Assembly (NCBI GenBank): GCA_905178155.1
Contig: CAJINV010000006.1
Location: 3,408,437 to 3,472,436 of the forward strand
Direction of reading: 5' to 3'
From: Amoebophrya sp. A120
Lineage: Eukaryota; Protista; Dinoflagellata
DNA: 64,000 nucleotides
The notes beneath the pieces are model-generated. The model had not been told where the DNA came from, ran no database searches, and worked only from the letters and a program-made list of their open reading frames with translations. Position numbers and translations under genes: made by a program. Each line of letters opens with the position of its first letter. Positions within the stretch are counted from its first letter, which is position 1. Shown piece by piece: positions 1-46,179 of this stretch.

Positions 1-3000
1 CTCTTTGCTGCTCATGCAATACAGATTTTTTTAGAGTCCGAAATCAGCATGACAAGTTGAATTCTTCCAGACCCAGACATTTTTACAGTTGATACGTCGC
101 GATGCTCCGGGAGTTCAACAGCCCCAAATTCGCCCACACGATTGCGTACGCATTGCAAAAGTATCGTACTAGTTCTAGTAGTGATTGCATAACAAATTTG
201 CTTAGCATTTTTACGAACAAAACTTGTAATGCTGTTTTACCTTAGGAACGAGATTTGTCATGCATAACAGCAATTACAACTACGAGTGCGATACTTTTGC
301 AATGCATATCACCCTGCTCCAAACCGTGACACCAACTTTGAACCTCGCCCCGATGTTCTGCATCTTGTTTCTCGGTGCCAGGATGCGGGCCTTGCAAATG
401 GACCCCATTGACGGGCACGTGCAAAACTGGTATCGACTGCAAATATGTCTGGGTCTGGAACAAGGATGCAACTTGTGATGCGCATTTTGGATTAGACAAA
501 AATAATCAGTCATGCAGGGACAGCAAAAGTAGCTTACAACTCATCATCAAACTCTGGAATTTCTCATGCGATCTAGGCACTGGGAAACCTCAATCACCAA
601 ACCTGTGATGCTATTGCTGGCATGCCAGAGCTTCTGGGTCATGCAAAATCAGTATGACAAAGTCCGCAGTCATCCAGACTCAGACATATTTGCAATGCAG
701 AACTGGGCGAAGGTCGCGATGATCTTGACCACAACCGGTATGGAAGTGCAAATACGTCTGGGTCTGGAAACTTGTCATGATGAATTGGCGAGACTGAAAT
801 ACATTCCAATGCAGCCAAGCATGAGAAGTTTGCAGAGCCCGTCCTCTTGCGCAGTCCGCATGAGAAACAGGGCTTTTGTATTACAAAAAGGGGGACTCTC
901 TTGCTAGTCATGCAATACAGGTTTTACAGGAGTGTAGGACTAGCATTACAAGTTCCATATTTCCGGACCCAGAGATTTGCAATCCATAACCGGTATGGAA
1001 GTGCAGATTCTGGCGATGTTCGTCTGCGGCCTGTGTCTGAACGGCGAGGTGAGGGCGGGGAACTGTGAAGGGGATGTGTATCCTCAGCAAAAACGTCCCC
1101 AGCACAAAGTTGTAATGCAAATGCGCAATGACAGGAACATTTGTAATGCGCATCTCCACGAGACGACGAGGCATTTTTCATCGTGATTTGACAATTTTGT
1201 AATGCTGTAAACAGAATGAGAAATTGGCTTTCTCGTGCGGCTTGCTTAGCTTTCTCGTGCGGCTTGCCTTGCTAAGCACCACTACACTACAGACGGAAAC
1301 TTATCATGCACAACTCCCAAAGCTTGGCGGTTTGTGTTGCAGATTTACCAACTTGGCTATGGGTTGGGGTCGTTTTTGCTCCGGATAATGTGAGGTTTAA
1401 AGTCAGCAACCCCTGGGTCATGGTGGTGATGCAGGTAATGGTGATGTTGTCACGAATTCATCATGGTTTTTTGTCATGCGTGAAACTGCATGAGAAGGAC
1501 TTTCTGTCATGCATAAAACCACTTTACAAATATTTGTTCATTCTGCCATTCACAACATATTCAGATCATCCGTTGGTCCACGATCGTCTGCATCTATACC
1601 GGCGCATTGATGGTTTTAGTTTCCGTCTGCGTGCTCGAGCACCCGAAAGACCCGGCAAAGACGCCGCCAGTCAGCTCGGCAATGAAGTGTGTGATGATCT
1701 TGACGGTACTGTACCTCATTGTCTACTTCGGCCTGTTCCTGATGACCTCGCTCCGCACCTGCTTGGGCAGTCAGTTTGGTTCGTCCGTCCTCCGTGCGTT
1801 CGACACGGCTCGCGGCACGGTATTCTTCGCGCCGATGCTGTATCCTGCGTAAAAACGTTCCCACCCCAGAGTTGTCATGCAGAATTACAATCACTGAAAA
1901 ACTTGTAATGCGCATTTCCATGAGAGGCATTTTCAATCGTGTTATGCAATTTGTGATGCTGTCAAGAGAATACCAGGATGGATTTGTGATGCGGTTGTCC
2001 TTGCTAACCCGCACTACAGTACAGAGAAAAACTTGTCATGCGTGACTTCCAAAACTTCTGGATCTGTGTTGCAGAGTCCCCAACTTGACTCTGGGGTGGG
2101 GACGTTTTTACACAGGATATGCTCTCCGTCCTCTTCCTCGGGTGCCGACTCCGGGCGTTGCAGCTGACGAAGACCATGGGGTCGCCGCAGGGATATGCCC
2201 AGGACTGGATGTTTCTGGCCACCTGGGCCATCATGGGGCAAGTGCTACTCTGCTTCTTCCTGGGTCTCTTATGCATTGCAAAAGCATCGTACTCGTATAA
2301 AAATAAATGCATTACAAATTTCCTCAGCATGAGAAAGAAAATTTGTAAATGTAATGCGGATTTACCTTACGAAGAAGATTTGTCATGCATATTTGCAATT
2401 ACTACGAGTGCGATACTTTTGCAGTGCATATCGCTTCGCGCCGGGCGATTCCTCCGACCTGAAGCCGGACGAGGACGGCAACCTGCATATCACAGGAAAA
2501 AGGGTTAGCGTTAACGGAACTTGTTCCGATGAGAATTTGTGATGCAGTAATGCATCACAAAACGTCGTGTCCAAATTTGTCATGCATAGCATGCATGCTC
2601 GGCAAAATTTGTCATGCGCGACTGCAAACCGTGAAGAACCATCAAAACCGTTGATGTTATACCTTTTTTGTTTGATACTCCAGCTTCCGGAGTCTGCGGA
2701 CGGCGGGAAACCGGGCATCGCACGGTACTTAATGGAAGGCTTCCGCTACTTGTGCATGTTCAGTACGTACGGCGCGGCCATCGGAATTTGCTACGCGATC
2801 TATACTATCAAATGTAAAAATGTCTGGGTCTGGAAACTTGTGATGCTGTGTGGCGTATCATGAGGAGGCCACAATTGCTGGCTCAGCATGACAAGGTTCT
2901 GAGCTTCTAGGTGTTGCCTATTCATTCTGCATGACAAACTACGTCTGCTCTGCATGACAGAAAAGTGGGGCTCTTTGGTAATGTGCATGACAGATTTAAG

Positions 3001-5928
3001 AGTCATGCCAGACAAGCATGACAAACTTGCATTCTTCCAGAGGACCCAGACACTTTTACACTTGATCTACACCATGACCCCGACCAACGCAAACGGGTCC
3101 GGCTCGCTGTTCCCCTGGGGCCCGATATGACAGTGCACAACTCCCCCTCGTTCTCATTTCTCATGCAAAATCCCAAATCCAGTTGCTTCCTTGTATCACT
3201 ATTATGCATGACAAATTCCGCAAGTGGCCCAAACAGTACCACAGTGCGGGGCACACAAATTTGTCATGCATAGGCTCTACGTGTGCTGGTGTTTGTACTA
3301 TTGCTGTTCATGCTACACAAGTGAGGGGGAGAGGGGGGTGTGCACTCTCATACCCGATCCCCCAGCCCTTCGACCCGGCGGAAGCACTGCAGAACGCCGG
3401 AAAATATGCATTGCAAAAGTACCGTACTCGTATAAATGCATTACAAACAAGGTCCGAGCACGGGGACAGAGTCCCCGTGCGGCGACCTTCCGGCATTTGC
3501 CTGCCTGCGCGGTGGCACTGGGCAGGCAGGTCGCCTGCAGCTAGGTATCTCGGTGCGCCTTGCATTCACTGACCCGCGACGGGCCTGCGGACGCGGCACC
3601 CTTGCTTGCGCGCACTAGGTCCGTTCACCTGCCGCGCGCAAAGATAATATAAAAGAAAAGAAGAAACAAACTGGCGCCGGGTGCGGATCTGGAGCGAGCC
3701 GGCCCGCAAGTCATGACGCGGCGACAGAATCCCCACACTTCTGCCCTAGGGATTTTCTTCGCCCCGTGCTTTCTTGGCCGCGGGGCGTGGTGTCCGGAGA
3801 GTGTTCGTAGCTAGCCCCTAGGCCATGACGCGGGGACCGAGTCCCCGCGCTTGCCTAGGGCTTTCGCCCCGTGGCCGCACGGTGCCCGGGAAGCACTTGC
3901 AGCTGACCCCTAGGCCATGACGCGGGGACCGAGTCCCCGCGCTGGCCTAGGAAGGGCCTTCGCCCCGTGGCCGCGCGGTGTCCGGGAGACAGTTGCAGCT
4001 GGCCCCTAGGCCATGACGCGGGGACCGAGTCCCCGCGCTGGCCTAGGGCTTTCGCCTCGTGGCCACACGTTGTCCGGGAAGCGCTTGCAGCTGACCCCTA
4101 GGCCATGACGCGGGGACCGAGTCCCCGCGCTGGCCTAGGGCTTTCGCCCCGTGGCCACACGGTGTCCGGGAAGCACTTGCAGCTGACCCCTAGGCCAGGA
4201 CGTGGGGACCGAGCCCCCGCGCTGGCCTAGGGCTTTCGCCCCGTGGCCGCACGGTGTCCGGGAAGCAATTGCTGCTGGCCCCTAGGCCATGACGCGGGGA
4301 CCGAGTCCCCGCGCTGGCCTAGGGCTTTCGCCCCGTGGCCGCCCGCACGTTGTCCGGGAAGCACTTGCAGCTGACCCCTAGGCCATGACGCGGGGGCCGA
4401 GTCCCCGCGCTGGCCTAGGGCTTTCGCCCCTTGGCCGCACGGTGTCCGGGAACGAAGCGCTTGCTGCTGACCCCTAGGCCATGGCGCGGGGACCGAGTCC
4501 CCGCGCTGGCCTAGGGCTTTCGCCCCGTGGCCTCACGGTGTCCGGGAAGCACTTGCAGCTGGCCCCTAGGCCATGACGCGGGGACCGAGTCCCCGCGCTG
4601 GCCTAGGGCTTTCGCCCCGTGGCCGCACGGTGTCCGGGAAGCACTTGCAGCTGGCCCCTAGGCCATGACGCGGGGACCGAGTCCCCGCGCTGGCCTAGGG
4701 CTTTCGCCCCGTGGCCGCACGGTGTCCGGGAAGCACTTGCTGCTGGCCCCTAAGCCATGACGCGGGGACCGAGTCCCCGCGCTGGCCTAGGGCTTTCGCC
4801 CCGTGGCCGCACGGTGTCCGGGAAGGAAGCACTTGCAGCTGTCCCCTAGGCCATGACGCGGGGACCGAGTCCCCGCGCTGGCCTAGGGTTTTCGCCCCGT
4901 GGCCGCACGGTGTCCGGGAGCGCTTGCTGCTCGTTGGCCCCTAGGCCATGGCGCGGGGACCGAGTCCCCGCGCTGGCCTAGGGCATTCGCCCCGTGGCCG
5001 CCCGCACGGTGTCCGGGAAGCACTCGCAGCTGGCCCCTAGGCCATGACGCGGGGAAAGGGCCCCCGCGCTGGCCTAGGGCTTTCGCCCCGTGGCTGGCCG
5101 CACGGTGTCCGGGAAGCACTTGGTTGCAGCTGGCCCCTAGGCCATGACGCTCGCGGGGACCGAGTCCCCGCGCTGGCCTAGGACTTTCGCCCCGTGGCCG
5201 CACGGTGTCCGGGAAGCGCTTGCAGCTGACCCCTAGGCCATGACGCGGGGACCGAGTCCCCGCGCTGGCCTAGGGCTTTCGCCCCGTGGCCGCACGGTGT
5301 CCGGGAAGCACTTGCAGCTGACCCCTAGGCCATGACGCGGGGACCGAGTCCCCGCGCTGGCCTAGGGCTTTCGCCCCGTGGCCGCACGGTCCGTCTCGCG
5401 ACGCGTGACAGACTGGACCTCGGGGCCAAACCTCGCGTGACAAAGTCCGAAAGTTTGGCCGGGGTGTGTCCGAAAGTCTGTCTGGGGTGTGTCCGAAAGT
5501 CTGCCCGGGGTGTGTCCGGGGTGTGTCTGGGGTATGTTCGGACTTTTTGCCTGGGGTGTGTTCGGGGGTATGTCTGGGGTGTGTCTGGGGTGTGTCTGGG
5601 GTATGTTTATACCCCACCTTCTGCTTTTTCGCCAAAAATTTGTATTCAGGTCGTGACTGACTGCCATTTGCATACCCCTGACACACCCCCGAACATACCC
5701 CCGAGCATACCCCTCGCATGCATTTTTGACCAGCTGCTGCAGTTTAGATAGTAATTTCCCCAGCATGAGAAATGAAATTTGTAATGTGGATTTACCTTAA
5801 GAACAAGACTTGTAATGCAAGTCTTGCACTTATACGAATACGATACTTTTGCACAGGATAGAAAACAGCTCACCGTGCCGCCCCCGGCCGCTGCGTCGGG
5901 AAGTGCGGCTGCGGCGGGGTTTTTCTGA
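1..5928 (+). CDS. Multi-pass membrane protein of unknown function, 5' end outside window; split by 11 TAT..ATA elements and one GT-AG intron (1435-1564)
   Basis: Joined exons read ...TLLQTVTPTLNLAPMFCILFLGARMRALQMDPIDGHVQNWAKVAMILTTTGMEVQILA...GTVFFAPMLSVLFLGCRLRALQLTKTMGSPQGYAQDWMFL...AGKQLTVPPPAAASGSAAAAGFF, TGA at 5926-5928. The APM..LFLG.R.RALQ motif is internally duplicated. Frame is kept at each junction when the element plus 5 bp is removed. Confidence 0.85.
1435..1564 (+). other. Canonical GT-AG intron
   Basis: CAG|GTAATG...TTCAG|ATC joins VVMQ to IIRWS in frame. Confidence 0.8.
3126..3352. mobile_element. Introner family E (TATGACAGTGCACAACTCCCCCTC, about 220 bp); 4 copies
   Basis: DR CCCGA. 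Others: 10042-10264, 32357-32573, 45073-45338. Confidence 0.9.
3700..5390. repeat. GC-rich tandem repeat, 92-bp unit, about 18 copies
   Basis: GGCCTAGGGCTTTCGCCCCGTGGCCGCACGGTGTCCGGGAAGCACTTGCAGCTGACCCCTAGGCCATGACGCGGGGACCGAGTCCCCGCGCT recurs, e.g. starting at 4132 and 4224. Confidence 0.95.
5460..5715. repeat. GGGGTGTGTC-type short repeats followed by an inverted set
   Basis: GGGGTGTGTC/GGGGTATGT units at 5461-5607; ACACACCCC/ACATACCCC units at 5671-5713. Confidence 0.8.
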
Positions 5929-6437
5929 AGAACAAAGTGCTGAAGTTGCGACTTTGCTTCGTCCCAGCTGGTATTCATCGTTGTAGCGAGTAACAAAAGA
6001 AAACGCAACATGAGCGCAACTCTCTAGGCTGCAAAAGCAATTGCTATTGCATTTGCTCGCACGGTGCTTTCCTCAAATAGTAAAATGGTTGCCCTTATAA
6101 GAAAGTAGCCTCAACATTTACGATTTTTTCCTTGTCTAGATGGGACGGACTGTGCCAGTGGCGGAAAGAGTTTCCACATGGACGAAAGCGCACGGCAAAC
6201 TTATCTTTTCCAATAACTTTTTGTCACCATCGGTGATACTTAAAAACTGGTACTATATGGCTTCTGACGGGATTCGTCGAAGTGACAAAAAAAACAATTT
6301 TTTTCCCCAGCAGCTCATGGTCATGAGCAGGCTCGAAAGATGAACCATAGCAAGAATATGAATAAGCAAAGCAGGTCTACAACTGCACGACCCCACTCGC
6401 AAGATTTGGGGCGAACAGAAGTGCCTGCAAGAACCTC

Positions 6438-6925
6438 TTACGCAGAATTCTTGTTGAGTCTCTCTCGGTACAACTCCGCTACTGGGAGCAGCAATGACTT
6501 CTTTTGTTCCTCTTGGGCGGAGGCGTGGTGGCTTTTTACCTCCGCCGGGGTTAGTTGACGATCAGTATCCAAGAAAAAAACACCATCACAATCACATGTA
6601 GGAGGTTTTGCATCAGAAATTTCTCTCGCATGCCAAATATTTCACTCGCACACCCTAAACCCTAAACACAAAGGGAAATCGCCAATAACTCTTGACTGTG
6701 ATGCATTTTTGCGCATGACAAAAATTTTTGTATTGCAAAAATGTGCAATTAGTGATTGTGATGGTGTTTTTTTCTTGAATAATCAGGAGATGAAAACTCT
6801 AGCCGCCGGCAGTGAAGATCGAAGTAGATCATGATCCACCGCGTGACCAGGTCATATGATGGCTCACAGGAGAAGATCACAAGCAGACGCCCGAAATTGA
6901 TGGAAATGAAAAACCAGGCACCCAT
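6438..6925 (-). CDS. Possible small protein split by the element at 6566-6781
   Basis: Removing 6566-6781 plus one ATCAG copy gives MGAWFFISINFGRLL...LEFSSPD-RQLTPAEVKSHHASAQEEQKKSLLLPVAELYRERLNKNSA-stop. No homology recognised. Confidence 0.3.
6566..6781. mobile_element. Singleton TAT..ATA element (other singletons: 19550-19763, 28496-28629)
   Basis: 30-bp TIR TATCCAAGAAAAAAACACCATCACAATCAC, DR ATCAG, internal TGTGATGC and GCATGACA. Confidence 0.88.
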
Positions 6926-7082
6926 CGTCGTCGTCGCGATCTCTTCAGAAGTTGTTGTACTTCTTAGTACTACATCGAAACTAAGTCTAAGCACAAACAT
7001 GAATGACAACTACAATACCCGGCTTTGATATGATCGCTGATTTCGTTTTTTTTGCAACTTCTACTTGTTGACACGACACATC

Positions 7083-10000
7083 ATGGCAACTGCGAGGACT
7101 ACAAGAACCTCGCAGAAAATTATGTCGTTCTTTAGTCAAGGTCAACGCGCTCGAAGCTTCTGTCTGCTTTTCGTCCTGCTGCAAGCGTGGTGGTGGTGGT
7201 TCCTCCTGCTTCCTTCAGTCCGCGCTGATGTGGAGGCTGTAGGAGCAACTGCTTCCAGCAGTTCAAGTTCTGTGGGACGAGGCACTGCTGTTGCGAATGA
7301 AGATGATGGTCCTGCATCCGCTGCTGCTTCTGGACCACCTGGCGTCGATGTTGAAACAAAGAGCGCTACAAGGAGGAGCGACGTCGATGATATCAAATCC
7401 AAACCGGAAGCACAAGCACAAACTGCAGACGTCGCAGGTGCCACCGAAAACCAAGACGACAACGACGACCTGGAAGGCCCTCTGCCCGACCGGCCGGAGC
7501 CCTGGAACGACCGGGAAACTTGGTACCAAAACGAAGATAAGCTCGATCTAGAAGAGGAACAGCAGGCGTTTAACGAGGACAACGCGATAAACGATATTGT
7601 GGACGACGAGGACGACGTGAGTGCTGCCAACTTGGACCACGACCAGCAGCAGTCACGACAACCAGAACGGGCGACACAACATACTCCTGCGGGCAAGAAG
7701 ATAGAAGATGAAGGGCAGGAGGCGCAAAAACATCAAATAGACGGCCAGTCTTCCCTGTTAGAGGTGCAGGAAAAAATAAACAAGCAGCGCTTAAGCAGGG
7801 CAGGTGAAGCAGACAATAGCGAGGTGGGGGCGGGTGACGATGGTACTAGCAGTACGAGGAAAAATATGAAACCCCGTCCGAAAAAAGGCCACCTGGACAA
7901 GATCTTCAGTGACACGATTGACGAGATTTCTGAGCAACTGCCAAAAGACGAGTTTGAACTGGAGAAGCGAGAAAGCGCGCTCATGGATTATCAAATGCAA
8001 AAGTGTCTGGGTCTGGAAGATTGCGAGATTTGTCATGCTTGTGTGGCATGGCCAAAAAGTTTGTGATGCCTGTCCAAGAAGAGACCCTTTTGCCTGTCAT
8101 GCCAAAGCGCAGTTTGTCATGCGAAAAACGCAACACAGATATTTCTCATGCTTGGCTGTGCATTACAGAGCATCTACTATTCCCAACGCAGCATTACAAG
8201 TTTCCAGACCCAGACATATTTGCATTTGATATGGATCTGGTCAGCCTGAAATCCGATCTGGATCGCGACGTGGTGAAGAAAACCTCTATGCATTGCGAAA
8301 GTGTCGCACTCGTATAATGAATGCATTACAAATTTCTTCAGCATGAGAAATAAAATTTGTAATGTGGATTTACCTTATGAGCAAGATTTGTAATGCGTGT
8401 TTGCGATTTTTACTACGAGTGCGATGCTTTTGCATAGGATAACCTCGCTCGTCGAGCAAGACGCACAAAACCTCGACAACGACCTGCATAATCTGAAGGA
8501 AAAACAGGAAAAGGAACTGGTTTTGTCGCTACTCTATCCTGTGAAAAATGAGTATCGTGCGCCTACTAATCGCAATCTTGAATGACAGAAACAGATCTAG
8601 ACCCTTACCTCAATCAACAAAAGCATGACAAATTCCCGTTCTGTTTTTGAAAAAGTTGGCTGTCATGCAATTTGTACCACACGCGATGCTTTTGCATTGC
8701 ATAAACCCCACGGTGGAATGGACAGCGGACCGGTGGGTCGCAACAGCGGAAGTGGGACGGGTGAAACAGGCAGTGCTGGCGGTGGAACAGGCAGTGGCAG
8801 TGGCAGTGGATCAGCCTATCCCGTGCAAAAGTATCGCACTCGTACTAGTTGCTTTTTTGCATGACGTATCTTCTTCCTTAGGCTTAGCTAAACCCAATAA
8901 TTCAGCTCTAAATATTTCATTTATCACGCTGTCTGTGCAAATAATTTCTGTATGCAACTACTACCGTACCACCGCGATACAATACTTTTGCAATGCATAC
9001 AGGCAGTGGATCAACATTTGTGCAGCTAACAAAGGAAGACATCGAGAACTGGAGGCACCGGTATGGGCACTTCGTGTACCGCACCCTTTCCGCTGCCGAT
9101 CAAGCCAACGCACCGCAGAACGACTTGGAGCAGCGTGTCTTTCGTCTCTGCGAGCACATGGAGATTCGACCGCAGGAGTTTGATAAGCAGAAAACAGCCA
9201 ACTTCTACGCAAAAACGGTAGCGCCAGCTGGGAGTGGGAGACAGAACCAGCAGAAATCATCGTCCTACATTCAAGAAAAAGAAAAAGCCGGGCAAATGGG
9301 AGCGAACGCCTTCGGCGAGGATGAGGAGGAGAAAAAGCTGAATAGCTCTCCCCTTGTCGACATTTGGTGCAACTTCAAGGACGCTGAGTTGTTGGACGCG
9401 GATCGGTATCCTGTGCAAAAGTATTGTACTCGTAGTAATTGCTGTCATGCATTACAAATTTTTTTTTCTCATGCTGAGGAAAAATGCACTTTTAGGAGTA
9501 CGAGGATACTTTTGCAATGCATAATCGGGCTGCTGATCCCGAAGCAAGGCGACCGGAAATTGTCCCCATTCCCGCCGTATCAACTGCAAATATCGCTGGA
9601 TGTCTGGAAAAGTGTAAACTTGTCATGGAGGTTTTCCATGACCCATGAGGTCTGGAATGCGGGGCCTAGCATGACAGACTCTGTGAGGTCTTTGCCATGC
9701 CTATCCTGCATGAGAAACTCCCTCCCAACTCGGTCGACAGTGGACAGCTTTTGGCATTCATGCAACACAGATTTTTGCGTGATTCGGATTTAGCATGGCA
9801 AGTTGGCACTCTTCCAGACCTCCCAAACATATTTGCAACGTATACGCCGCGAGCCTGGACGGAACGCGTCTGCTGCATCCCCAGGACGCACTGAAAGACG
9901 TGAAAGAGCTCCGGTGGGACGGGAAGAAGCGCCTGTACACCATGGTTTCCAAACACGGGAAGCCAATCGCGAAGTTTGAGAAGGTGCACATCCCCTACGG

Positions 10001-13000
10001 TCTGTGGAAGATGGATTTTTCGCAACTCGCGCCCATAGACCTACGACAGTGCACAACTCCCCCTCCCCCTCATTTGTCATGCAAAATACCGAATCCACAT
10101 CTTGCCTTTAAGCACTCGGCGCTTCACAAGTTTTGGACGCCCAAACAGGACTACATTCCATGTGCGGATTTGTCATGCAAAAGCAACATTTACATTTGTG
10201 GCATTGCTTCTGTTACTGCTCATGCTATACAAATGAGGGGGAGGGGGCGTTGTGCACTCTCATAAGACCAGATCAGTAACTACATCGAGAACCGCGGCTA
10301 CGATCTGCGGATGCTCATGCCCGCCGTGTATGAAAAAACGGGACGCACGGACAGCACGGTGTACCAGTACATGGTGACAGAAGCACGAGAGGCCGAAGAC
10401 GACATGAATAATCCTTACCCAAACATGGTAACTGCGCTAGCCAAACTGCAAAAAGAGTGCGAGTACGTCCTCATCCGACCTATCGAATGCAAAAATATAG
10501 CGCTGTACTAGTATGAATTGCATCACAAATTAGCTCAGCATTACAAATGAAACTTGCAATGCTGTTTTACCCTATAGGAAAGAGATTTGTCACGCATAAC
10601 AGCAATTACTACGAGTGCGATACTTTTGCAGTTCATACGCCCTATGCAACAGCAACACGCGGACCTCGAAACCGCATCCGAGGAAGAAGAAAAAAGCGTA
10701 CCTATCTACGCCGGTATATCCTATGTAAAAACGTACCCACCCCAGAGTTGTCATGCAGATTTGCCATGACAGGAACATTTGTGATGCGCAACCCCATAAC
10801 AGGCATTTTCAATCGTGTTTGGGAACTTGTAATGCTGTAAACAGGATCAGAAGGTCGATGTGTGATGCGGCTTTCCTTGCTAACTTGCACTACCTTACGG
10901 ACTGAAACTTGTCATGCGTGACTCCTAAAACTCCTAGGTTTGTGTTGCAAAATCCCCATCCTGACTCTGGTGTGGGTACATTTTTACTCAGGATACGGTA
11001 GTACCAGCGGCCCTCCCGCAAGTGGAAGTAGTCGCGCTGTCGGGAATGCGGCCCTGGACGCTGCGTTCAGCCAGGACGTGGCTTACTGTCTCCAGATATC
11101 GATTGCAAATATCCCTGAATGTCTGGAAGGATGCGAACTTGTAGAAATGCGTGTTCCGAATCAACATGCGACTGTCGCGCAGGACCTGCAAAAGTTGCCC
11201 AGTTCTGGTCATGATGAGAAGCCATTTTTCATTGCAGAATAATACACATCGCCTAGTGCAAGTAGGGGCTGCAGAACCTGTGAAGATCATGCTAGGCCCT
11301 GCATATTCCAGACTTGGCAGAGCTAGAGCTTGGAACAACTGCATGACAATAAATCGCGGAACCTTGTTCCAGACCCAGACACTTTTGCAGTTGATACCAG
11401 AGCGAATTATTTCGGAAGCGGACCAGAATTTTAAACTTCTCCCAGAACAAGCGCGCCGGGGTGGTGTTAGCAGACGTGTCAGTGGATGACATCGGGGCGG
11501 ACGCTGGGGAGGGAAAGACATTTAAATTTGATCCAAAACTTCCGATGGCATTTGTGTTGGCGTATGCATTGCAAAAGTCTCGTACTAGTATTACTCGCAT
11601 GACAAATTCATATCAAAAAGAGAACTGAAATTTGTAATGCGGATTGAGATAAGAAACCAGATTTGTCATGCATAACTGCGATTCCTACGAGTACGATACT
11701 TTTGCACAGGATATGGCGCCGCTACGAGCGATTCCGGACGGGTACGAGCCAACCTGGGTCAGTCGAGACTATCAAAAGTAAAAATGTCTGGGTCTGGAAG
11801 TAGAGCACAACTTTGTCATGCACATTTTCCATGATCCATGATATCTGTGATGTATGCCATAGCATCACAGACTTTTTGAGCGCTTACCTATGCGCATCCA
11901 GCACAACAAATGCCCTCTCCGCGTAGCCAAATTTGAGTCCTCTTGCTGGTCATGCAATACAGGTTTTCTGAGCATCCAACACATATATCGCAAAGTCATG
12001 CTTGCTGGTCATGCAATACAGGTGGACTGTACAGGCGCGACACATATATCGCAAAGTACAAGGAGGAAGAACGCGCAGCAGTCGTGAAGCAAATGAAACC
12101 GCTGCTGCAAGAACTAGAAGCGACAGCGAAGCGCGCCGACCTCCGAATTTTCGGCGGCGATATGAATGCCGAATTCTACGAGGGCGCCGACGGCGAATTT
12201 CTATTCGCTCGGGAGAAAGTAGCGCCAGTCATCTACGAGGAAGTTTTAGCGCCCCTCGCTCGCCTAATGTCCCTCTATACCAAGTACCGCTGCCCGGCAG
12301 GCCCGACCTGCTTTCGGACCACACCCAGACGGATTGACTTCGCTCTAGTAGGCGCCGAAGACGCAAACTCGCTCAAGGTGAGGCAGAAGCGGGCTAAGGT
12401 GCCGGCCAATTGGCAGTATGAGTTCGGCAAGAAGCAAACGCGCTGCCAGTGGCTGAAGGACGACGAGACCCCAGATGAAGCCGAGGCGGACCATCTAGCA
12501 CTCCATACAGTAATCCGGTGGAGGCCGACGAAGGACGAAACGGGGCAGGGAACAACCGGGGCAGATCGAAACAACATTGGAACAGCAGGCAAAAAGCCGA
12601 CAGCGTTTAACGCAACATACGCTGATAAAAAACCGGGCGGACCCGCGGCCACGGGCAGAGTCAAGGTCCTGAAGAGCAAGGCGGAATTCGAGAAGTGCGC
12701 CCCCTTCCCCGGCGCCATATCCTGGCCTAGGGGGGCAGCGAAGAAAGAACAACTGGCGCCGGTCCTCGAAGCCGCAGAAATGCCAAGCGCGTGCGAAGTA
12801 GGTCTCGACGGCATACAGAACTGGATCAGGGATCTTCTGAAAACGGAGTGCCCGCTGAAGGCAAAGAATTTAATGACCCAGCAGATGGAAGCATTCTACG
12901 GCCGGAAGGGGGGAAGGAAGGCGCACCAGAAAAAGACGCAGCAAAGCAATGAACCTGAGCAGACGGGCCCTGCCAGCACGACTGAAACAGCTGACGAGAA

Positions 13001-16000
13001 GGACACGCGCATGAAGAAGGAGAAGGCGCGTGAGCTACTAGAAAAATGGCAAGCAACCTACCCGAAACTTGAAGAAGACGACACCGAGGACAGCATCTAC
13101 AAGAAAGCAAGAAGGGTCAGGAAGCTAGTAACGGGGCAAGCGCGTGGCGAACTTGCAGGCGAGCTCAGCAAGATCAACATAGGCACGAAAGAGCAGCCGG
13201 ACTGGGTAGAAGGGACGGAGAAAGTGACAGAGGAGGTCGCTTTCTATCACCTACTCAAAAACGAACTGACTCGGGCTGCCGAAGGCCTCGGGCACACGTT
13301 CAACAAAGTCGAGTTCAACAAAGCTTTCCAGCAATTAACGGACGCGTCGGAACACGTCCCGGAGATCGTCACTACTGGGCCACAGTTACGTAAAACCCTG
13401 GGTAGAATGAATGGCGAAGCCGCCGGCGCCGACGGAATGCGCGTCGAGGGGCTGAAATCCCTCACCGACAGCCAACTGCAGGAAGTTGCTGCAGGAGTGA
13501 CTGACTTCTTGCGGAAAGTCGGCAAGGCGATTAACTCCCCCGGCAACATGAGCCAGCTCATCCCGCACGCGCTTACAGTGCTGCAGGTCGAGATCCTGAC
13601 GAAAGCGTCGGGGCCGATTACGGAGGTCAGCAAATTCCGCGCCGTTATTAAGAACACCCCAGTAATGAAACTCCTAGTAAGCCACCTAACTTACATTGCG
13701 ACGCGAGTGGCCGACATCAATGACGTTTTCACCCGGTGCGGCGCAGCTGGGAAGCCGGCAGCCTCCTGCACGCTCCAGCTGCTAGAAGTGCTAGAGAGTT
13801 GCCACGGGGCCGAACTGAGCGACGGCTACGACGGCAAAGACGAGACAAGCAAGAACGACGGCGATCAAGGAGCAAAAGCAGTAGCAACCGAGCCACCGAC
13901 CGCGAACGGGAACACGGGAGGAGAACAGACCACGGAGGAGAGCCAAAAAGAAGGAGCGACGGCAGGCAAGAGTAGTAGCAACCTATCCACAGAAGCAGCA
14001 GAGGCAGCAGTTGAAGTAATCGACTGGATCAAGCTCTTAATGGGCCTCGACGCTAGTAATTTTTACAACTGCCTGACGTTGCCGACAGCCGTGCGGTGTA
14101 TGAGACGCGCTCGCTTGCACCCGACGTTTATCAAGTTGATCATGCTCACTACGTGGTCGAAGAAGATCTTCCTGAGGAACGGGAACCACTACGGCGAGGT
14201 CAAAGCACATCGCGACCTCATCCAAGGCTCCGTAGAGTGCATGCTAATAGGAACAATCGTCTACATGGCCGGGGTGCAGAAGGTGGCCGAATTCTTCGAA
14301 GAGTGCTACGACGAAACAGGTCGAATAGTAGCAGGCAAAATCGACGGCGCGACCCACAAACTGCGAAGGAGTATCAGGGAGCTCTACAAAGGCGACAACG
14401 ACATCGACACGTCCTTCCCAGATTACAGCACGAGCGAAATTGACGAGCTTTGGTTCGATGCGGGATCGCTAGGCGGATCGACAACAGGATACCGGCGGAC
14501 ACAGACCTGGAACAAATATCGGAAGGTGTACGTGCAGACACATCAATCCGGAAAGCTCCAGAGCCCGGAAGAGCCAGCGCGGCAGAAAACTTCCTCAGCG
14601 CTTCAATTTGTCGATGATGGGACCCTTTGTCTCAGGTACAAACCTGCAGACCACGCACTAGCGTTGCGACTACTGAGTGCTGTGAAAACGGTCTACGAAG
14701 ACATCTACCGAAGTGAAGGTCAGTATCTTGCGCCGTTAAAGTGCGAATACGTTTTTTCCGGAACAGCAGAACAGTCGGAGCAGGTCCGTGAGGTTTTCTC
14801 CCCATTCGGGATCGAGTTCAACGAGAAGAAAGCTGCGAAGATCTTGGGAGTGACAATCAGCCTGAGTAGTATCGACGAGCAGCGCGCGGCACTTAGGACG
14901 CAAGTCAGAAGAGCGATCGGGACGGCACAACACCACACGGAACAGCTGATGGTCGCGCAGCCCCGGATGGACGGCAAGGAACTTCGAACAGCAGTGCAGG
15001 TCTTCTTCCTCTCCCCGCTGCTTTACCGATTGCCGGCTATGCATTTGATCTTCAAGCCAGAGGACTGGACAGAGCTACTGACAGACATTTCGTTCGGCGC
15101 AGCCAGGTCGCTGGGCTTTAGCTGGGAGGCCATAGCAAAACTAGCGGAGAAGGCAAAGACCGGAGGTGGCGAGTTCTACCGTATCATCTTCAGCGAAAAC
15201 GTTCTGGCTTTGGTCGACCCGTATCTGCTAGGCATCAAGATTCTACGGTCAGCGGCGCAGGCTGGGTACTTGACAGATCCCGACAGATTGATCAAGTGGG
15301 CGACCTTTCCGATTTCTCTTCACGGAGCAACGAGCACAGGTCTGACAGAATCAGACGCGGCTGACATCGACGACAAGAACCAGGCCGATGTCGCGTTGTT
15401 GGACGCAGCGGCAGCAGGCGCGTCAACGAGGTTGCCACCAGCAAGTGATCTACGGTGCACGGGGTTCGTCCCGGATCGTTCCGGGCTCAGTGAGGAACCC
15501 TCACAGAGAACCGCCCACCGCCGCCGCTTCTTTAAAATCGAAGCCAATAATGCCGGTGATGGAATCGCATGCAGTGAGACGGACATCCTCGGGACAGTAG
15601 TAAGGCCGAGCGTTTTGCAGGTGAAGACAGTGCGAACACACCTGAGGACCGAAACCGGCAGGAAGGAACAGCGGGCAGCAGCATACATCAACAACGCCTT
15701 GTATGCGATGCCATTGCTGATCCAGGAACAACAGTCGGATGGAGGAGAAAGCTTCGTAATTTCGCTAGAAAACTACCAGACACTTCACGACGGAACAAAA
15801 GGACCGATCCGGAAAGGCCAAGGGATCGCTTTGGACCTGGTAGAAGCAATCGAGGGACTACAACTTCTAGGCCATCGGGTCCTGCGAAAAAACAGCCAGA
15901 ACCGGACGGAGCTAAACGCGGCGCAAGGCGTGCATGAGATCCCCCTCAGGTTCGTCAACATCTCCGGACATGACAAAAACATGGACTGGCCGATCTATGA

Positions 16001-19000
16001 GTTCGGTGAGGAACTATTTGCGTTCGGACCGGTTTCGACCTGGCAACGGATGAGCAAAAAGGAGCGCGGCGCTTTCCTTGCCCAGGCCCTAGGAGTAGAA
16101 ACAGACGAGGAGGCGGCAGAGCGGGCACGAAAAGAACGAGAAGCCGAGAGAACACAACCCCAGCCCAAGGCGCCACAGGGGGCGAGTCAGAGTAGCGGGA
16201 CTGCCGGAAAAAAGTCGACTAGCGGCGCAGGACCAAAGAAAAAACAGGCAAAAGCGAAAGCCCCGGGGCCTGCACCACCACAGCCGGTAGGAGAAAAAAC
16301 ACCGCCACCAAAACGCAGGAGGGTTTCAGAGCAGTCGGACGACGACGCAGGCGAAAAGAGAAAGCCCAACAGAAAAGCACCACCAGCGCCGGCAGCCGCG
16401 GCAGAAGAGCAACCAACAGCAAAGGCCCCGACACAGAAAAAGACAAAGGGCGCGGCTGGGCCGAAACCGAAGCCACCAGTAGCCACGGCAGCAGGAAAAG
16501 CCCCAGCAAAAGCTCCGGAACAGAAAAAGGCGAAGGGGGCTGCCGGACCGAAGCCGAAGGCAACGGAAGCCAAACCGCCGCAACCCAAGGCGGGCGGAAA
16601 GAAGAGATCTGCAGAGGAGGCGGAGGCGCTCCCGGGTGTGGCAAGCAAAAAACAGAAGCAAACCAGCAAAAAACAGGAGGAAGCCAACCCAGCGAGAAAA
16701 AAGCCACCACCTAAACAGAACGAGGCGCCGCGACAGGCCGCTAATTCCGCAGCGGAAAACACCGCAGAAGCGGCGCCACCGAAGAGCGAGCAAGCCGAGA
16801 CACGGAAGACCCACGGAACAGAGCAACTGGCTACGCAGGGAGATCGGGAGGACGCGAAACCTGCAAACGGGCTCGGCGGGAGGGCCGAAGCAGAAAAGCA
16901 GGAAACAGCGGCAACAGAGAAAAGCAAGGCACAACCGGCGAGGCCGGGTGCCATGTTTACGTCGACGAGCCAGTTCTCGATGGTCGGTGACCTGTTCCGC
17001 GAACTGGAACGCAGCCGGAACAACAGCAACCAGCCAGCCTCTCACTCCTCCTCAGCCTCTTCCTCCTCGTCCGCAAATACGAAAGCCAAGTAAAAAAAAG
17101 AAGAAAAGAAGAACCCCACTCGTCGAACCCCGACGGATACCCCCTCAAGCCCATCCCTCCCCGCATAGTAGTACCCCTTACCTACATGAAGAGCGAGGGA
17201 CCTCGTAGCACCAGGCGGAATGGAAAATAGTAGCTACCCCCAGATGATAGCAAAGTAGCGAACGACGACCCGGAGTGCGCAGAATCGGTTGTAGACATGG
17301 CGGCAAATCGACCGACGAAAAAGAGCGCGCGAGATAACCACACTGAAACCAAGCAGACACCTGACTGACGTTTTGTACATATAGAGCTGCACAAAGATGA
17401 AAAAAAGAGAAAAAGGAAAAAAGCGCAAGCCGTCCGGCGGGGCGGCCGCTCCTATCCATCACACATCGGAGCACTCGATGTTCCTGCTCGGTCCCGGCGA
17501 CGACGAGGGGTAGCGAGAGCCACAGCACGGAGCGACACAGAGGAAAAGAGAGTAATCCAAAAACGCATGGCCTCACGTACGTACACTTCTGCACTTTTGT
17601 CTTTGCTCCCCGAAAGGGGGTTTCCTGTGGGGGGGGGGTGCGGGAAGTCTAAAAGCAAATGGAACGAAAGCCGCCTGCAAGCGAAGCGATCAAAAACCAC
17701 GGCAGAAGCGATGTCATGCGGGTGATGTGGTTCAGGGGCGATTGCGATCCCCCATTAGGCATGGCGATAGCAAGGGCGTTGCACGACGCGAAGATCTGTC
17801 ATGCAGTTTGAACGTGCCAGAACCAAGCCCCACAGTCAAGACGACAACAGCGGCAAAGTGATCAGCCTTCGGGCGTGCGCGATGCTCGTTCCATCTACTT
17901 TTTCGACGATTCACTTCCTTCACCAGGGCCTTGCTCAACCCTGGACCAGAACGAGTAGGACCAAGGACCCAAGAGGTAGGCACTGTAGCGGAAAGTTGGA
18001 GCAAAAAAAATTTTTTTTGAAAAAGGACCCAATAGGAGCCGACCTGCGTGGATGGTTATAAAACAGGTAGCCTGACCCCAAATGGCAATGATCATTGGGA
18101 GCAGCAGAGCGCAGCAGGACCCCGGGACTGCAACAGCTCACCCCTGTTTTAACTTAGAATCACGCAGTGCTCCGAGTATGCCACTACCTCGACCCCTCAA
18201 GAAAAGAAGTAGCCCCCCCAACTACAACACCGCCGTCCGCGATCAGGATACGACTTGTACTAACCAACATTGTACCAACCGAGATCCCGCGGGGCGCAGG
18301 GTCTGGGCGGCTCGAAGCAGAACGCGCAGCACAAGCGGGAGACAACACATCCAAAGGTGGGGATGGTCTCAGGTCGTTCAGGTCCGCCAAGGGTTGCGAC
18401 GCGCTATCAGGGTTTCGCCAACTCCGCGGGGGCGTTGCGGGTAACTCCCTAAAACACCAAAACCGGCAGAAATTAGGGCCGGCAGTCCGGGTAATTGCTC
18501 ACCAGTCGTTTTGTATGACGAACCAAGAGGTGCAACGCGAACAGATAGGCATGAATTTAGCATCTCCGGCTGGTAGAGCAATCGGCTACCGAGGTACGTC
18601 AGGGGGCGTAGCTACATCAATCAATCCAAATGTAGCATCACAAGTTTGGCTCTTCCAGGCCCAGACACTTTTGCATTTGATAGAGACGCGCCAAGCACGA
18701 AACTGTACCCCAGCGACATTGGCAGCGAGAAACGGGAGCGAATCGACGAGGACGCTCACCGATTGAAAACCATCTTCGCGCTATGGAAGTGTCAGGATCG
18801 AAATCATCAGAGTTGAAATAATTTGTGACGCATAAAACGATTAACCCGTTGGCGCCTTGTTTTCAAGTGGCGCATGATGACAAATTTGGGTAGAACTGAA
18901 ATCCAGTTTGTGATGCTGTTTCGGTAAGGAAGACGCCTGCTGTATTTGTCATGCTACTTTAGCAGCTCAATTTCTACCCCTCGACAGGCTTGCAATCTGC

Positions 19001-21183: not shown

Positions 21184-23280
21184 ATGATGACCTGCCAGCT
21201 CACCGTGCAGAGGACCAACACATGCCAACTCTTCGAAGAAAGAGCTCGACGAGTGGTTATCATGCATACTTACAATATTTTTTGTCCGGTGGTGTGTGCG
21301 CACCACATGCAGCAGGAACGAAAATTGAGTGGCGTTCTAGGCAAGCTAATGCTAGAGCTAGTTGCACGAAAAATATATACAGGATCCTTCCAAATCAAAT
21401 GCAAGAGACCCAAATCGATCTTTACATTCGATGGCAAGAAAACGATTAAAACCACGGGTATCAACATACCCAATTAAGGAAGGGTGGAGGAAATCACGAC
21501 AGGAGATGGTCCCAGGTGGTCGTAAAAATCGCTACGCTTCTCGCCGAAGGATGAGCTCTTGACTCGATCCAGGGCCACCACGGGCCAAAGGCTCTGATGA
21601 TAGATAAAATTTGCGATGACAACAAACCACATGTGCGAAGATGAGTTGCAATTCTACATTACAATTCACTTTTTCCACGCCAACAGATGAAAATCATTTT
21701 CATCCCAGCCACTCTATGGCTATGGGCTCTAAGAAATCCACTCTCACTTCCAGTTTTCGACAATATTCGAGAGCCTATACACGAATCCAATCTGGTGCAC
21801 AACTACAAACAAGAAAATCACATAATTAATTGCTTCTTCGACTCACCACGATATCATCGATAGAGAAGATTCTGATTCATTTGATTGGGAAACATGAACT
21901 TGAGCACTTCTTTCTTGCGCCACACATTTCTCCTCATCATCCATCCAAAATCATCCATCTAAGTCTATTTCTCTATCCAAATCAATGGAGGTCATATTTT
22001 CTCTTTTGTTTTGATCTGGATCCAAATCCAATGAATCTCTTCCGAAAATGTCATGTTTTCTCTTCTGGGATAAAAATATTTAAAATCTCATCATAGTTCA
22101 TGGTTAGAATGACATTCATTCACATGGAATTTCGAAAATTAGAAATAACCGAAATTGATCTCGAAAAATAAAAATTTGGAAGATATCTTGAAATTTAAAA
22201 GATAAAATTCAATAATTTCGAAATGTAAAGAGAAATTCAGGGGAGATCTAAAGAGAAAAATCAATGGCATTTCTTCAATGAGACCAAAAACACACACATC
22301 ATAACATTCATTCTACACAGATCGAGATTAGATTCATTCATATTTTTTTTTTTTTCGATTCATTATGAAAATTAGGAATTTGATATATTGTGATCCGATC
22401 ATCCCAATCATTACAAACTATAACCAGAAACAGAAACCCAAACATGAAACCCAGATGAACATGAATACATCGACAAAATTTTTTCAAAAAAAATTTCGGA
22501 ATTCAAAATATATAATATAAATATTCAGGAATTCCAAGGCATATCCCACCTATGATCCTGTCCCTGTGATATAAATCGACATCAATTTTCCAGGAATTGA
22601 GACAAAAATGAATCAATAGAAGAGATTCTTTCTTTCTTTCAAAAATGAAAGAAATCCGAACATTGAAAGAAAGAAACAAAGAAAGAGATTCAGAATCAGA
22701 AGAAAATCAAAGAATATGATGATGAGATGATCCAAAACCAATTCAAGATCATAAGGCATTGATATCAAAAAAAGAAAACGAGAATCTATCATCCTTCCAG
22801 AATATCGATCGATGGTGTCACAGGATGATTTCAATGACGATGATTTGGATGTAGGAAGCTCAATCGAGATCAGAAATTGTAATTGAATGTGAACATCAGA
22901 AACAATAAGATAGAGTAGAAAATGGCCAGACAAAGAGCTGGTGCTGAAATCAAGAAGGATAAGATTTGTTTTTTTTTTTTTCAGAATTATCCGGCTGGCA
23001 AAGAAATTTTTGGTTTAGATTGACACAGATCGAGACTTTCAATTAGGAACAGGACAGGTTTATATTTGGATTGTTGAAGGGAAAGATAGTTTGTTTATTT
23101 TCTGTAGGACAAGACATTTGTTTATCTTTATTTTCAGTTTCATTTTTCAGAAATAGATGTTTATGAAGTTTTTCAAATTTCTACACCAATAGGTTATAGA
23201 TATCGAGGACAGGACAAGAGAGATCTTCATGAAGGATTTCTTCAGGGCCTTGAACATTTGACGCCATGCCCAGGCACGAC

Positions 23281-23323
<43 letters not shown>

Positions 23324-23325
23324 GA
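23281..23325. repeat. (GAAA)n microsatellite
   Basis: Imperfect GAAA run in AT-rich intergenic DNA. Confidence 0.85.
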
Positions 23326-23541
23326 AGCTCAATTTTCTTGTGTTGATAAATATTTGATTTTGGAAAATCGATATCATGAGGAGTGGAACAACATCGAAGT
23401 GCTTATGATCCAGCGTGTATTCTTATGATTCTCTTTCAGACCAGCCGTTTTCTCATCGTTTGTTTGAGAATATGAGGTCTTTTTGTTCATTTTTGTATTT
23501 TCCAGCCAGTTATGGTTCAGTATTGTGTTTTCTTCTCCTTT

Positions 23542-25343: not shown

Positions 25344-26412
25344 TGTACTCTACTTCGAGCTCCTTGCACTTGCAGTAGCAGTTGAGAAAGAAGCACTAGG
25401 GCACAATTCGAATAAACAATGAATCCACCAGGGGGATGGATCGACAGTGTCAGCTACGCTACAGAATTCCAATTCTCAATCGCATTTTATCGAAGGACTA
25501 AAAGGGAAAACATAAACATGGGGGAAAAAAATGAAATGAACATACTAAAGTCGGAGTCGCTGTGATCATGAGAACGAGGAGCAGATGAAGATGTGTGACA
25601 GGTACAACAACGTGGAATGAAGATCAGTTTCAAACTAAGACCACACATCCTCCTCTCAAAGACAAACAGGGTAATTGAGTTTGTTGTTGTTCTCAAGATC
25701 TTCAAATTCAGTAGTCATTTTGGTCGTCCTCGTCATCCAATAATTGTTGAAAACACATGTGTCCTCATGGGGTCCTGTATTGCGATGAGAAACTGCTCCC
25801 AAATGTGTTTTTTGTACAGCAGAAGTGGGTCAAATCGGACGGGAGATTTGTCCAAGCATACACGATGAATATCATTTGGCTCCTTGTTTGTTTCTCTTGT
25901 TTTCCACATTATTTTTTGAAATTCACATTTCTCTACTATCAATCTTGAGACGTCCTCGGGCACCATCAATTCGTGCGCTAGTATCTTTTGTTCTAGAAGA
26001 AGTTGGTAATATATGATAATTGCGACTTTTTTGTCGGTCATCGGCGCGGGGGCGGGACTACAAGTATTTTCTGTCAGACAGAATGACCGCTTCGTTCATA
26101 TCGGACTGCTGTTCTACGTATTGCTTGAGGCTTGCAGTTTCGACTAGTAGATTAAGTCAGAATACACTTGAGATGTCGGGTCTTTTGCTACAGGGAACGA
26201 GTTTTGAGTTTTCTTTGCTTTCACTACATCTTGATAAAAGTAGTCCTAAGTGTCTGTGTCTATAGTGTACCTACGAGTAGTAAAAAAAGTCGGCGTGGTT
26301 CAGACTTTTTTTTTGTTTGGTGTTCTACTTCAGTAACGAGCGTTGGTTAGGAATCACCAAGAAATTAAAGACCCATCTCCATCTCCATCACCACCTTTCC
26401 TCTTCAAAAAAT

Positions 26413-46000: not shown

Positions 46001-46179
46001 TCCACAGCTTGCGAAGCAGCTTTCTCAAGCTTTATCCTCACGGCCGCGCAAGTGGAAATTGTGGCCGTGTGGAGCAAGATTAGCGAGGACACCAGCACCA
46101 CCAGGGCGGGCCCCGACAAAAGAGTGCTGTTCCCCCAGATCATACCGCCGAGAGAAGAAGTAGATCGTAACACGGGCAT
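34089..46179 (-). CDS. Very large protein with N-terminal hydrophobic segment, degenerate class-3 lipase-like motif and WW-like domain; 12 elements
   Basis: LLLTGYGTGGAVALVV...CIAFSAPPV lies in the 42007-44741 exon. LPVPWEVV...KPFRYFYNPITGKSQRTLP forms only after removal of element 41793-42006. The junction across about 37320-39057 is uncertain, so this could be two genes. Confidence 0.65.
34878..35728. mobile_element. 851-bp minisatellite-bearing insertion nested in a family-B element
   Basis: Splits host TATAAA^TTGCAT with an AA duplication and ends ATAGT. Contains GAGAGGGTGGCGC repeats and inverted CCACCTCTC repeats. Confidence 0.8.
36192..36519. mobile_element. Introner family I (TATCAAAATGAAAAATCCCC..CCCCATAT, about 320 bp); 3 copies
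   Basis: DR TGTGA. Others: 19803-20118, 57238-57558. Confidence 0.88.
37401..38945. mobile_element. Non-autonomous DNA transposon with 83-bp TIRs and 8(-9)-bp target duplication
   Basis: TIRs 37401-37483 and 38863-38945 are nearly perfect. CTACTTTT(G) flanks both ends. Internal G-rich tandem repeats at 38305-38700. Confidence 0.9.
39324..39436. mobile_element. Introner family N (TATC....AAAAAA..ACCATCCCC, 113-128 bp); 2 copies
   Basis: Nearly whole-length hairpin. The other copy is 47989-48116. Confidence 0.8.

What the first reader, a model, noticed from the sequence alone, without database searches (positions are those of the whole stretch)
7989..8441. One octamer, TGTVATGC / GCATBACA, is shared in multiple copies by all otherwise unrelated families
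Families with unrelated TIRs and interiors all carry several TGT(C/G/A)ATGC boxes in both orientations. The first is usually about 33-45 nt from each end (positions 43 and 34 in 7989-8231). The motif is scarce in exons and intergenic DNA. Inference: a single trans-acting factor (transposase DNA-binding domain, host chromatin protein, or splicing factor) services all families.
Basis: partly seen in the sequence, partly recalled or inferred. Interest (0 to 1): 0.8.

Follow-up and report, generated by a model that had tools for sequence, protein, structure and literature searches.

The report
Shared spaced box in jumping introns
Nearly all of the small mobile introns of the marine parasite Amoebophrya A120 examined here carry several copies of one conserved, regularly spaced eight-letter box, likely the DNA landing site of a single still-unidentified protein that would move them all, which gives a bait for finding that protein.

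Summary
The window is Amoebophrya sp. A120. The elements are its published TAT..ATA introners (5-bp target duplication); one probable RNA contig skips 11 of 11 exactly. TGTVATGC occurs 250 times against 8 by chance, in 71 of 72 elements and 16 of 16 families, and in 193 of 203 elements from a second assembly. The seven fixed bases are conserved over flanks in 11 of 11 families (0.91 vs 0.66), while V drifts but avoids T. New here: same-direction boxes sit 31-33 bp apart across mostly unrelated spacers, distances are phased near 10.4 bp, the first 32 bp are nearly box-free, and two families' TIR is itself a box variant. There is no strand bias to transcription and no compensatory pairing, so recognition is most likely on double-stranded DNA. 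Best reading: subterminal binding sites of one shared transposase. No such protein was found, and 'all' has an exception. I found no paper describing the box.

The parts
7989..8231 (.). Family F1 introner (243 bp), TIR TATCAAATGCAAA, TSD TGGAT at 7984-7988 and 8232-8236; exact boxes 8031+, 8062+ (31-bp pair), 8095+, 8115+, 8160-, 8191- (31-bp pair)
   Evidence: skipped as 248 nt (element + one TSD copy) in contig of run X3
8287..8441 (.). Family F2 introner (155 bp), TSD ACCTC; exact boxes 8323- and 8389+, one-mismatch boxes 8341- and 8358+; the left TIR (TATGCATTGCGAAA) is itself a box variant
   Evidence: skipped as 160 nt
8817..8999 (.). F2 introner with no exact box (only degenerate ones), still skipped exactly (188 nt)
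10717..10995 (.). F3 introner with all boxes in one direction (33, 64, 112, 145, 194 exact; 225 variant), skipped exactly (284 nt)
8535..11713 (.). Further skipped introners of the same gene: 8535-8703, 9407-9523, 9578-9844, 10042-10264, 10481-10637, 11097-11396, 11563-11713
   Evidence: each skip = element length + 5; no GT..AG at any of the six registers
7041..21183 (+). Host gene; 1080 codons open stop-to-stop after removing 19 elements plus one TSD each; function unknown (two of its ORF pieces gave no Pfam hit)
11770..18682 (.). F1 introner (TSD GAGAC, boxes at 45+, 93- and 41 from the right end) interrupted by a ~6.6-kb non-LTR retrotransposon; inferred to be spliced as one 6.9-kb intron
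   Evidence: the 317 unlaid bases of the X3 contig equal the next three predicted exons
11937..17093 (+). 1718-codon ORF, endonuclease plus reverse transcriptase (non-LTR retrotransposon), not a DNA transposase
   Evidence: no Pfam hit; atlas neighbours with RVT_1 and Exo_endo_phos, score 0.91-0.93
431..63898 (.). Span of the catalogue of 73 short TAT..ATA elements (113-506 bp, 16 families after merging) holding 205 of the 250 boxes

Best explanation
The box (extended consensus about RAYTTGTVATGCA) is a conserved, regularly spaced, strand-symmetric motif inside Amoebophrya A120 introners, and is likely the double-stranded-DNA binding site of one shared mobilising protein, most likely the DNA-binding domain of the transposase that would cut at the TAT..ATA ends and leave the 5-bp duplication. 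Shown: enrichment, conservation, 31-33-bp same-direction pairs, ~10.4-bp phasing, a nearly box-free first 32 bp, box-like TIRs in families F2 and F6, and both orientations relative to transcription. Inferred: several protomers bind sites on one face of the helix, and the catalytic core covers the first ~30 bp. This array would help bring together the two ends of a stiff 110-330-bp element. Copies that keep the boxes would be copied more often, so unrelated interiors converge on, or retain, one grammar. Splicing appears to depend on the ends rather than on the number or direction of boxes.
For: Leave-one-out identity within families: core seven bases 0.91, V 0.62, nearby flanks 0.66, core above flank in 11 of 11 families. 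Close pairs: core 24/1134 vs interior 272/3662 mismatches at 90-95% identity, same direction in all four identity bands. V is C/G/A, almost never T (5 vs 200; 8 vs 511). Same-direction 31-33 spacing in 10 of 16 window families (weight 10.1; best 3-nt window in 2000 nulls 5.6) and in 11 of 14 multi-member families overall; spacers are 0.33 identical between families vs 0.27 shuffled. Phasing of same-direction distances peaks at 10.4-10.6 bp; beyond 35 bp cos 0.24 vs null 0.01 +/- 0.09, p=0.005. The reverse box scores best at TIR position 4 of all offsets 3-59, and in F2/F6 the TIR is the second member of a 31-bp pair; TIR-derived subterminal repeats bound by transposase are documented for Lemi1/Emigrant and Sleeping Beauty (PMC1636448, passages). 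The arms of one element match each other no better than ends of other family members (0.68 vs 0.70; 0.88 vs 0.87). One clear non-TAT TIR element (L041:2011-2333) has no box, and the box-free TAT element L075 carries a different repeated motif four times. A120 has a TIR family with 5-bp TSD, TA/TA termini and integrase-like homology (fam38; PMC12130899 passages and supplementary file 8).
Against: No transposase was found: none in 17 window ORFs or the 75 longest locus ORFs given to Pfam, and no long TAT..ATA element with a transposase ORF among 16 candidates. Farhat et al. report no transposase in A120 and conclude against general transposase mobilisation (PMC7789003 section 16). Whether fam38 carries the box could not be seen. 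The test of decay after insertion was uninformative: core mismatch 3.3%, 4.3% and 3.7% for TSD 5/5, 4/5 and 3/5 or less, and TSD mismatch did not track interior divergence, so selection after insertion is not excluded. Boxes fill whole interiors, not only the subterminal zones. TIR positions 4-16 (0.81) are less conserved than the boxes, and families F4, F7 and F8 lack a box-like TIR. Three of 14 families lack the 31-33 pair. All data come from one species or near-species; no binding was tested.
Confidence: 0.55

Rival explanations
1. A host DNA-binding or architectural protein reads the box as an accessory for transposition or for chromatin placement, while a separate enzyme cuts at TAT.
For: The DNA-level evidence fits equally. 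One motif is shared across families whose TIR positions 4-16 differ. No transposase is reported for A120 or found here. Phased A/T-rich flanks could favour bending (consensus).
Against: The motif is nearly confined to one transposon system: 0 in 2,538 nt of RNA-defined exons and 0.4-0.5 per kb elsewhere. It is absent from another TIR element and from one TAT element with its own motif. The TIR itself is a box variant in F2/F6.
Confidence: 0.2
2. A DNA-bound factor on the boxes marks introners during transcription and recruits the machinery that removes them without GT-AG or U1, so the boxes are kept by the host after insertion.
For: Strand symmetry is no obstacle for a DNA mark. All 11 skipped introns keep at least one matrix-level box. 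Box protection does not weaken in copies with mismatched TSDs (ratio 0.21-0.29). U1 snRNA was not detected in A120 (PMC7789003 passage).
Against: Introns with 0, 1 or 6 exact boxes are skipped alike. Interrupted or truncated copies show extra mismatch of similar size in box cores (+2.1 points) and interiors (+1.6), as neutral decay would give (suggestive only). A TAT element without boxes exists, though its splicing is unknown.
Confidence: 0.1
3. The box acts in RNA, as a splicing-factor site or as paired stems of the intron hairpin.
For: All 11 skipped introns fold better than shuffles (z -2.1 to -8.7), TIR arms pair in 10 of 11, and 8 of 26 boxes pair with another box. In the window, elements with only same-direction exact boxes leaned to the sense strand (13 vs 3, my tally).
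Against: That lean did not repeat in the second assembly (16 vs 13; 216/187 boxes). F1 and F2 lie 7:6 and 5:5 to transcription. Outermost inverted boxes can pair at V in only 47 of 170 elements, below the 38% expected. 18 of 26 boxes do not pair with a box.
Confidence: 0.1
4. The boxes are functionless relics of a common ancestor or of shuffled modules.
For: Some families share 40-85-nt stretches and merge in the larger set; spacers are slightly more alike than shuffled (0.33 vs 0.27).
Against: Core bases are three to four times less variable than interiors at every divergence level, while V inside the same box is as variable as flanks; spacing is kept while spacer sequence is not.
Confidence: 0.05

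Closest known systems
Amoebophrya A120 introner elements (Farhat et al. 2021, PMC7789003)
   Same: Same organism and elements: IR starting TAT + 7 nt + AAA, short direct repeats, non-canonical junctions, many families.
   Different: In the passages, section 16 and supplement search I saw, the paper describes only terminal IRs and DRs, no shared internal motif, and argues against general transposase mobilisation.
Subterminal repeats of TIR transposons: Lemi1/Emigrant MITE and Sleeping Beauty (PMC1636448), Hermes hAT (PMC10368747)
   Same: Several short motifs inside the ends, in both orientations, in part derived from the TIR, whose arrangement matters for transposase binding.
   Different: There the transposase is known and binding is shown. 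Here one box is shared by at least 14 multi-member families with largely unrelated interiors, fills the whole element, shows 31-33-bp pairs and helical phasing, and no protein is known.
A120 family 38 (Gozashti et al. 2025, PMC12130899)
   Same: TIR element of the same genome with 5-bp TSD and TA/TA termini; integrase-like homology makes it the best lead to the enzyme.
IS3EU/GingerRoot DNA transposons (PMC10045372)
   Same: TA..TA termini; integrase-type DDE chemistry would suit fam38.
   Different: TSD usually 6 bp there, 5 bp here; no transposase to compare.

Membership tests
Amoebophrya A120 introner elements | Host genome is Amoebophrya sp. A120 | tested here: met
   exon 23859-24539(-) 100% identical to an A120 protein, 53% to an A25 protein
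Amoebophrya A120 introner elements | Inverted repeat starting TAT, seven variable bases, then AAA | tested here: met
   end profile; description; families F4, F7 and F8 deviate after TAT
Amoebophrya A120 introner elements | Short direct repeat at the exon-intron boundary | tested here: met
   5-bp TSD; no target preference in 375 sites
Amoebophrya A120 introner elements | Removed from transcripts at non-canonical junctions | tested here: met
   11 of 11 skipped in one contig of run X3, whose RNA status is the tool's guess; joined frame open; no GT..AG
MITE / non-autonomous TIR DNA transposon | TIR, constant TSD, no coding capacity, dispersed families | tested here: met
MITE / non-autonomous TIR DNA transposon | Autonomous partner encoding a transposase with matching ends | tested here: inconclusive
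   none in the window or about 640 kb of partly overlapping loci; whole genome not held
Transposase-bound subterminal repeats | Multiple copies inside both ends, both orientations, conserved over flanks | tested here: met
Transposase-bound subterminal repeats | Motif related to part of the TIR | tested here: inconclusive
   clear in F2 and F6, weak on average (13% of family-weighted ends pass), absent in F4, F7, F8
Transposase-bound subterminal repeats | Bound by the transposase and needed for transposition | not testable with these tools
   no protein identified
IS3EU/GingerRoot | TA..TA termini | tested here: met
IS3EU/GingerRoot | 6-bp TSD | tested here: not met
   5 bp; skips equal element + 5; 6 bp usual per PMC10045372
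Intronic splicing-factor site (RNA motif) | Bias to one strand of the transcript | tested here: not met
   64/56, 216/187
Intronic splicing-factor site (RNA motif) | Present on the sense strand of every spliced member | tested here: not met
   sense-only, antisense-only and zero-exact-box introns are all skipped

The most novel reading that the evidence does not exclude
One domesticated or host DNA-binding protein reads a helically phased box lattice on tens of thousands of introners and does two jobs: it assembles the complex that copies them, and it marks them on the DNA for U1-independent, GT-AG-free excision from the transcript. That would be a DNA-encoded intron definition coupling mobility to splicing.
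Probability: 0.1. Interest if true: 0.9.

Novelty: new variant of a known kind. Interest (0 to 1): 0.55.

Why it matters
A120 introners are about 30,000 copies and 17% of the assembly (PMC7789003), yet neither their mobilising enzyme nor their splicing route is known, and the describing paper argued against a general transposase. A shared, constrained, phased motif shows that the many families answer to one factor and supplies a defined bait (a 31-bp box pair) and a genome query (long TAT..ATA elements with boxes) to find it. It also shifts weight from the RNA-hairpin picture towards protein recognition of each end.

Tried and rejected
No whole genome is held and the loci's assembly is not searchable, so no genome-wide transposase search was possible. 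RNA-side support rests on one gene and one run; no second stretch was laid. No listed run is on record as an RNA holder; raw-read runs X9-X11 gave 2, 0 and 0 reads and are no test. The 1718-codon ORF inside the 6.9-kb element looked like an autonomous partner but is a non-LTR retrotransposon. Of 16 long TAT..ATA candidates, the five locus candidates read in full were nested insertions or, for L075, non-coding; most others are pairings of separate short elements. Pfam on 17 window ORFs gave one hit (Nas2/PDZ) and on the 75 longest of 128 listed locus ORFs four hits, none a transposase. Both patterns found 0 matches in viral contigs. Four metagenome loci from other samples (L032, L088, L118, L135) were dropped as probable chance matches before counting. 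Two protein searches meant to place the second assembly relative to A120 gave no Amoebophrya hit in the length ranges searched, so it counts as the same or a close species only by element identity (up to 97.6%), not as an independent lineage. TSD mismatch failed as an age marker. An apparent sense-strand bias in the window did not replicate. The within-family permutation swaps left and right ends, so only the absence of excess pairing is used. Earlier scan findings: none. A likeness to the ApiAP2 site TGCATGCA is recalled only, and fits just the V=C variant.

Full report
What the window is. An exon at 23859-24539 (-) is 100% identical to an Amoebophrya sp. A120 protein and 53% to an A25 protein. 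The window is full of 113-506-bp elements that begin TAT, end ATA and sit between 5-bp direct repeats. Their end profile matches the published A120 introner ends, TAT + 7 + AAA (PMC7789003, passages). One contig of run X3, which the tool only guesses to be RNA, skips 11 of 11 elements between 6933 and 11769, each by element length plus 5. The joined sequence reads open for 810 codons and no register gives GT..AG. The elements are therefore known; the question is the internal box.

Is the box real? Yes. There are 250 matches against 8.3 by chance. 205 lie in 16,935 nt of 73 elements, 23 in 1,859 nt of fragments and 22 in the other 45,206 nt. Two hundred permuted versions of the motif give a median of 1 and a maximum of 16 inside elements, against 231. 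The RNA-defined exons hold 0 in 2,538 nt. After dropping one probable assembly duplicate, 71 of 72 elements and 16 of 16 families have an exact box; the extended consensus is about RAYTTGTVATGCA. Eleven elements were added by hand near unassigned boxes, so I sought an outside test. A pattern scan returned 153 loci, 149 from one assembly (the scan stopped after 18 of 64 parts) with the same families, up to 97.6% identical. There, 330 elements were called from TIR and perfect TSD alone, with 0 false calls on reversed sequence. Leaving out the 127 that match the query pattern, 193 of 203 have an exact box; all 11 box-less elements in the pooled set have matrix-level variants. A scan free of the end profile found 16 more TAT elements, 15 with boxes, and one 873-bp element with none. 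This assembly is an independent sample of loci, not shown to be an independent lineage.

Is it under constraint? With box positions taken from one copy and identity measured between two others, the seven fixed bases are 0.91 identical, V 0.62, nearby flanks 0.66, TIR positions 4-16 0.81; core exceeds flank in 11 of 11 families. In disjoint close pairs, core versus interior mismatch is 0.9 vs 3.5%, 2.1 vs 7.4%, 4.7 vs 13.1% and 5.1 vs 18.4% in four identity bands of 6, 37, 76 and 117 pairs. V is as free as flanks, which controls for alignment anchoring, yet avoids T (5 vs 200; 8 vs 511).

No exact box starts within 32 nt of an end in the window (0 of 144 ends); 75 of 144 start at 33-45 (null 21.6); in the second assembly 5 and 198 of 406. 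Inward-pointing first boxes cluster at 33-36 and 43-45. Same-direction boxes are 31-33 bp apart in 10 of 16 window families, beyond any 3-nt window in 2000 nulls, and in 11 of 14 multi-member families overall. The spacers are nearly unrelated between families (0.33 vs 0.27 shuffled). The other three families use a 45-48-bp convergent pair or shorter inverted pairs. Family-weighted same-direction distances are phased best at 10.4-10.6 bp, also beyond 35 bp (p=0.005 against a null that keeps the 31-33 gaps); this period was suggested by the window, and families are few. Thirty-one to 32 bp is three turns of B-DNA (general knowledge). The reverse box scores highest at TIR position 4, and in F2 and F6 the TIR is the second member of a 31-bp pair.

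DNA or RNA? Families F1 and F2 lie 7:6 and 5:5 to transcription, and boxes are 64 sense to 56 antisense in 46 elements, 216 to 187 in 135 elements of the second assembly; gene strands outside the one RNA-supported gene come from ORFs restored in silico. A lean to the sense strand among one-direction elements in the window (13 vs 3) did not repeat (16 vs 13). Introns with only sense boxes (10717), only antisense exact boxes (11097, 10481) or none exact (8817) are all skipped exactly. The introns do fold (z -2.1 to -8.7) and 8 of 26 boxes pair with another box, but outermost inverted boxes can pair at V in only 47 of 170 elements, below the 38% expected, and the two arms of an element match no better than ends of different copies at TIR positions 4-16 (positions 17-30 give 0.75 vs 0.70). 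An F1 element at 11770-18682 carries a 6.6-kb non-LTR retrotransposon; removing it joins one 1080-codon frame, and the 317 unlaid bases of the X3 contig equal the next three predicted exons. This is inferred splicing, not a seen junction; it suggests that the ends, not the interior layout, define the intron.

Mechanism. Shown: a constrained, phased, strand-symmetric motif confined to one TIR system. Inferred: it is bound as double-stranded DNA by one protein shared by the families. I favour the transposase's DNA-binding domain (0.55) because the motif doubles as the TIR in two families, is missing from another TIR element and from a TAT element that has its own repeated motif, and matches the logic of subterminal repeats in Emigrant, Sleeping Beauty and Hermes (PMC1636448 passages; PMC10368747 abstract and outline). 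Against this, no transposase was found in the window or the loci, and Farhat et al. found none in A120 (section 16). Gozashti et al. list family 38 as a TIR element with 5-bp TSD, TA/TA termini and integrase-like homology (passages; supplementary file 8 rows 1-41 of 58 seen); its sequence was not visible. Whether selection acts at copying or after insertion is open: TSD mismatch did not track age, and interrupted copies show similar extra mismatch in cores and interiors. A host DNA-binding accessory (0.2), a DNA mark for splicing (0.1), an RNA role (0.1) and a relic (0.05) remain.

Novelty. The elements are members of a known class. The shared box and its grammar did not appear in what I read of PMC7789003 (passages, section 16, supplement search with 0 hits for the motif; figures such as S19 and S25 are not held and may show it), PMC12130899 or PMC9860276 (passages). 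A search for Amoebophrya with the motif gave 0 papers; four others listed none on it by title or abstract start. Roy et al. 2023 was seen only as a reference-list entry. Verdict: a new variant of a known kind, interest 0.55.

Noticed in passing
window 11770-18682: A non-LTR retrotransposon (~6.6 kb, endonuclease + reverse transcriptase ORF 11937-17093) nested in an F1 introner; a 22-nt stretch of the introner recurs just inside the insertion's 5' end. The whole appears to be spliced as one 6.9-kb intron.
   Followed up: partly
window 3405-5860: F2-ended element of 2456 bp with perfect TSD GAAAA, holding a GC-rich 92-bp tandem array (3809-5390, about 17 copies).
   Followed up: partly
window 34846-35857; L010:505-1608: A GC-rich ~0.8-kb insertion with 13-bp tandem repeats sits inside an F2 element here and inside an F4 element in L010; removing the window element restores a 562-codon frame.
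   Followed up: partly
L016:632-1465, L017:6314-6770, window 51714-52219: Introners enlarged by internal insertions; in L016 and L017 the insert ends in an (ATC)n/(GAT)n run that joins at a box, suggesting a retroelement tail that uses the box as a target.
   Followed up: no
L075:10885-11757: 873-bp TAT..ATA element with perfect 5-bp TSD and long TIR but no box; it has its own 12-nt motif four times and a long internal palindrome.
   Followed up: partly
L041:2011-2333: 323-bp element with a perfect 20-bp or longer TIR of another type and no box.
   Followed up: no
window 58529-58828 and 60521-60820: Exact 300-nt duplication next to the N gap (60328-60520), probably an assembly artefact.
   Followed up: partly
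window 23545-25349 (-): Proteasome chaperone Nas2/PSMD9-like gene with three introners; the restored frame (380 codons stop to stop) agrees with the 378-aa database protein.
   Followed up: yes
positions 17-32 of element ends, e.g. window 8005-8020: The family-specific stretch between TIR and first box is as conserved as or more conserved than TIR positions 4-16 (0.83 vs 0.81; 0.90 in F1), a possible second, family-specific contact.
   Followed up: partly
window 38292-38699: GC-rich tandem array of 68-72-nt units, unrelated to the introners.
   Followed up: no
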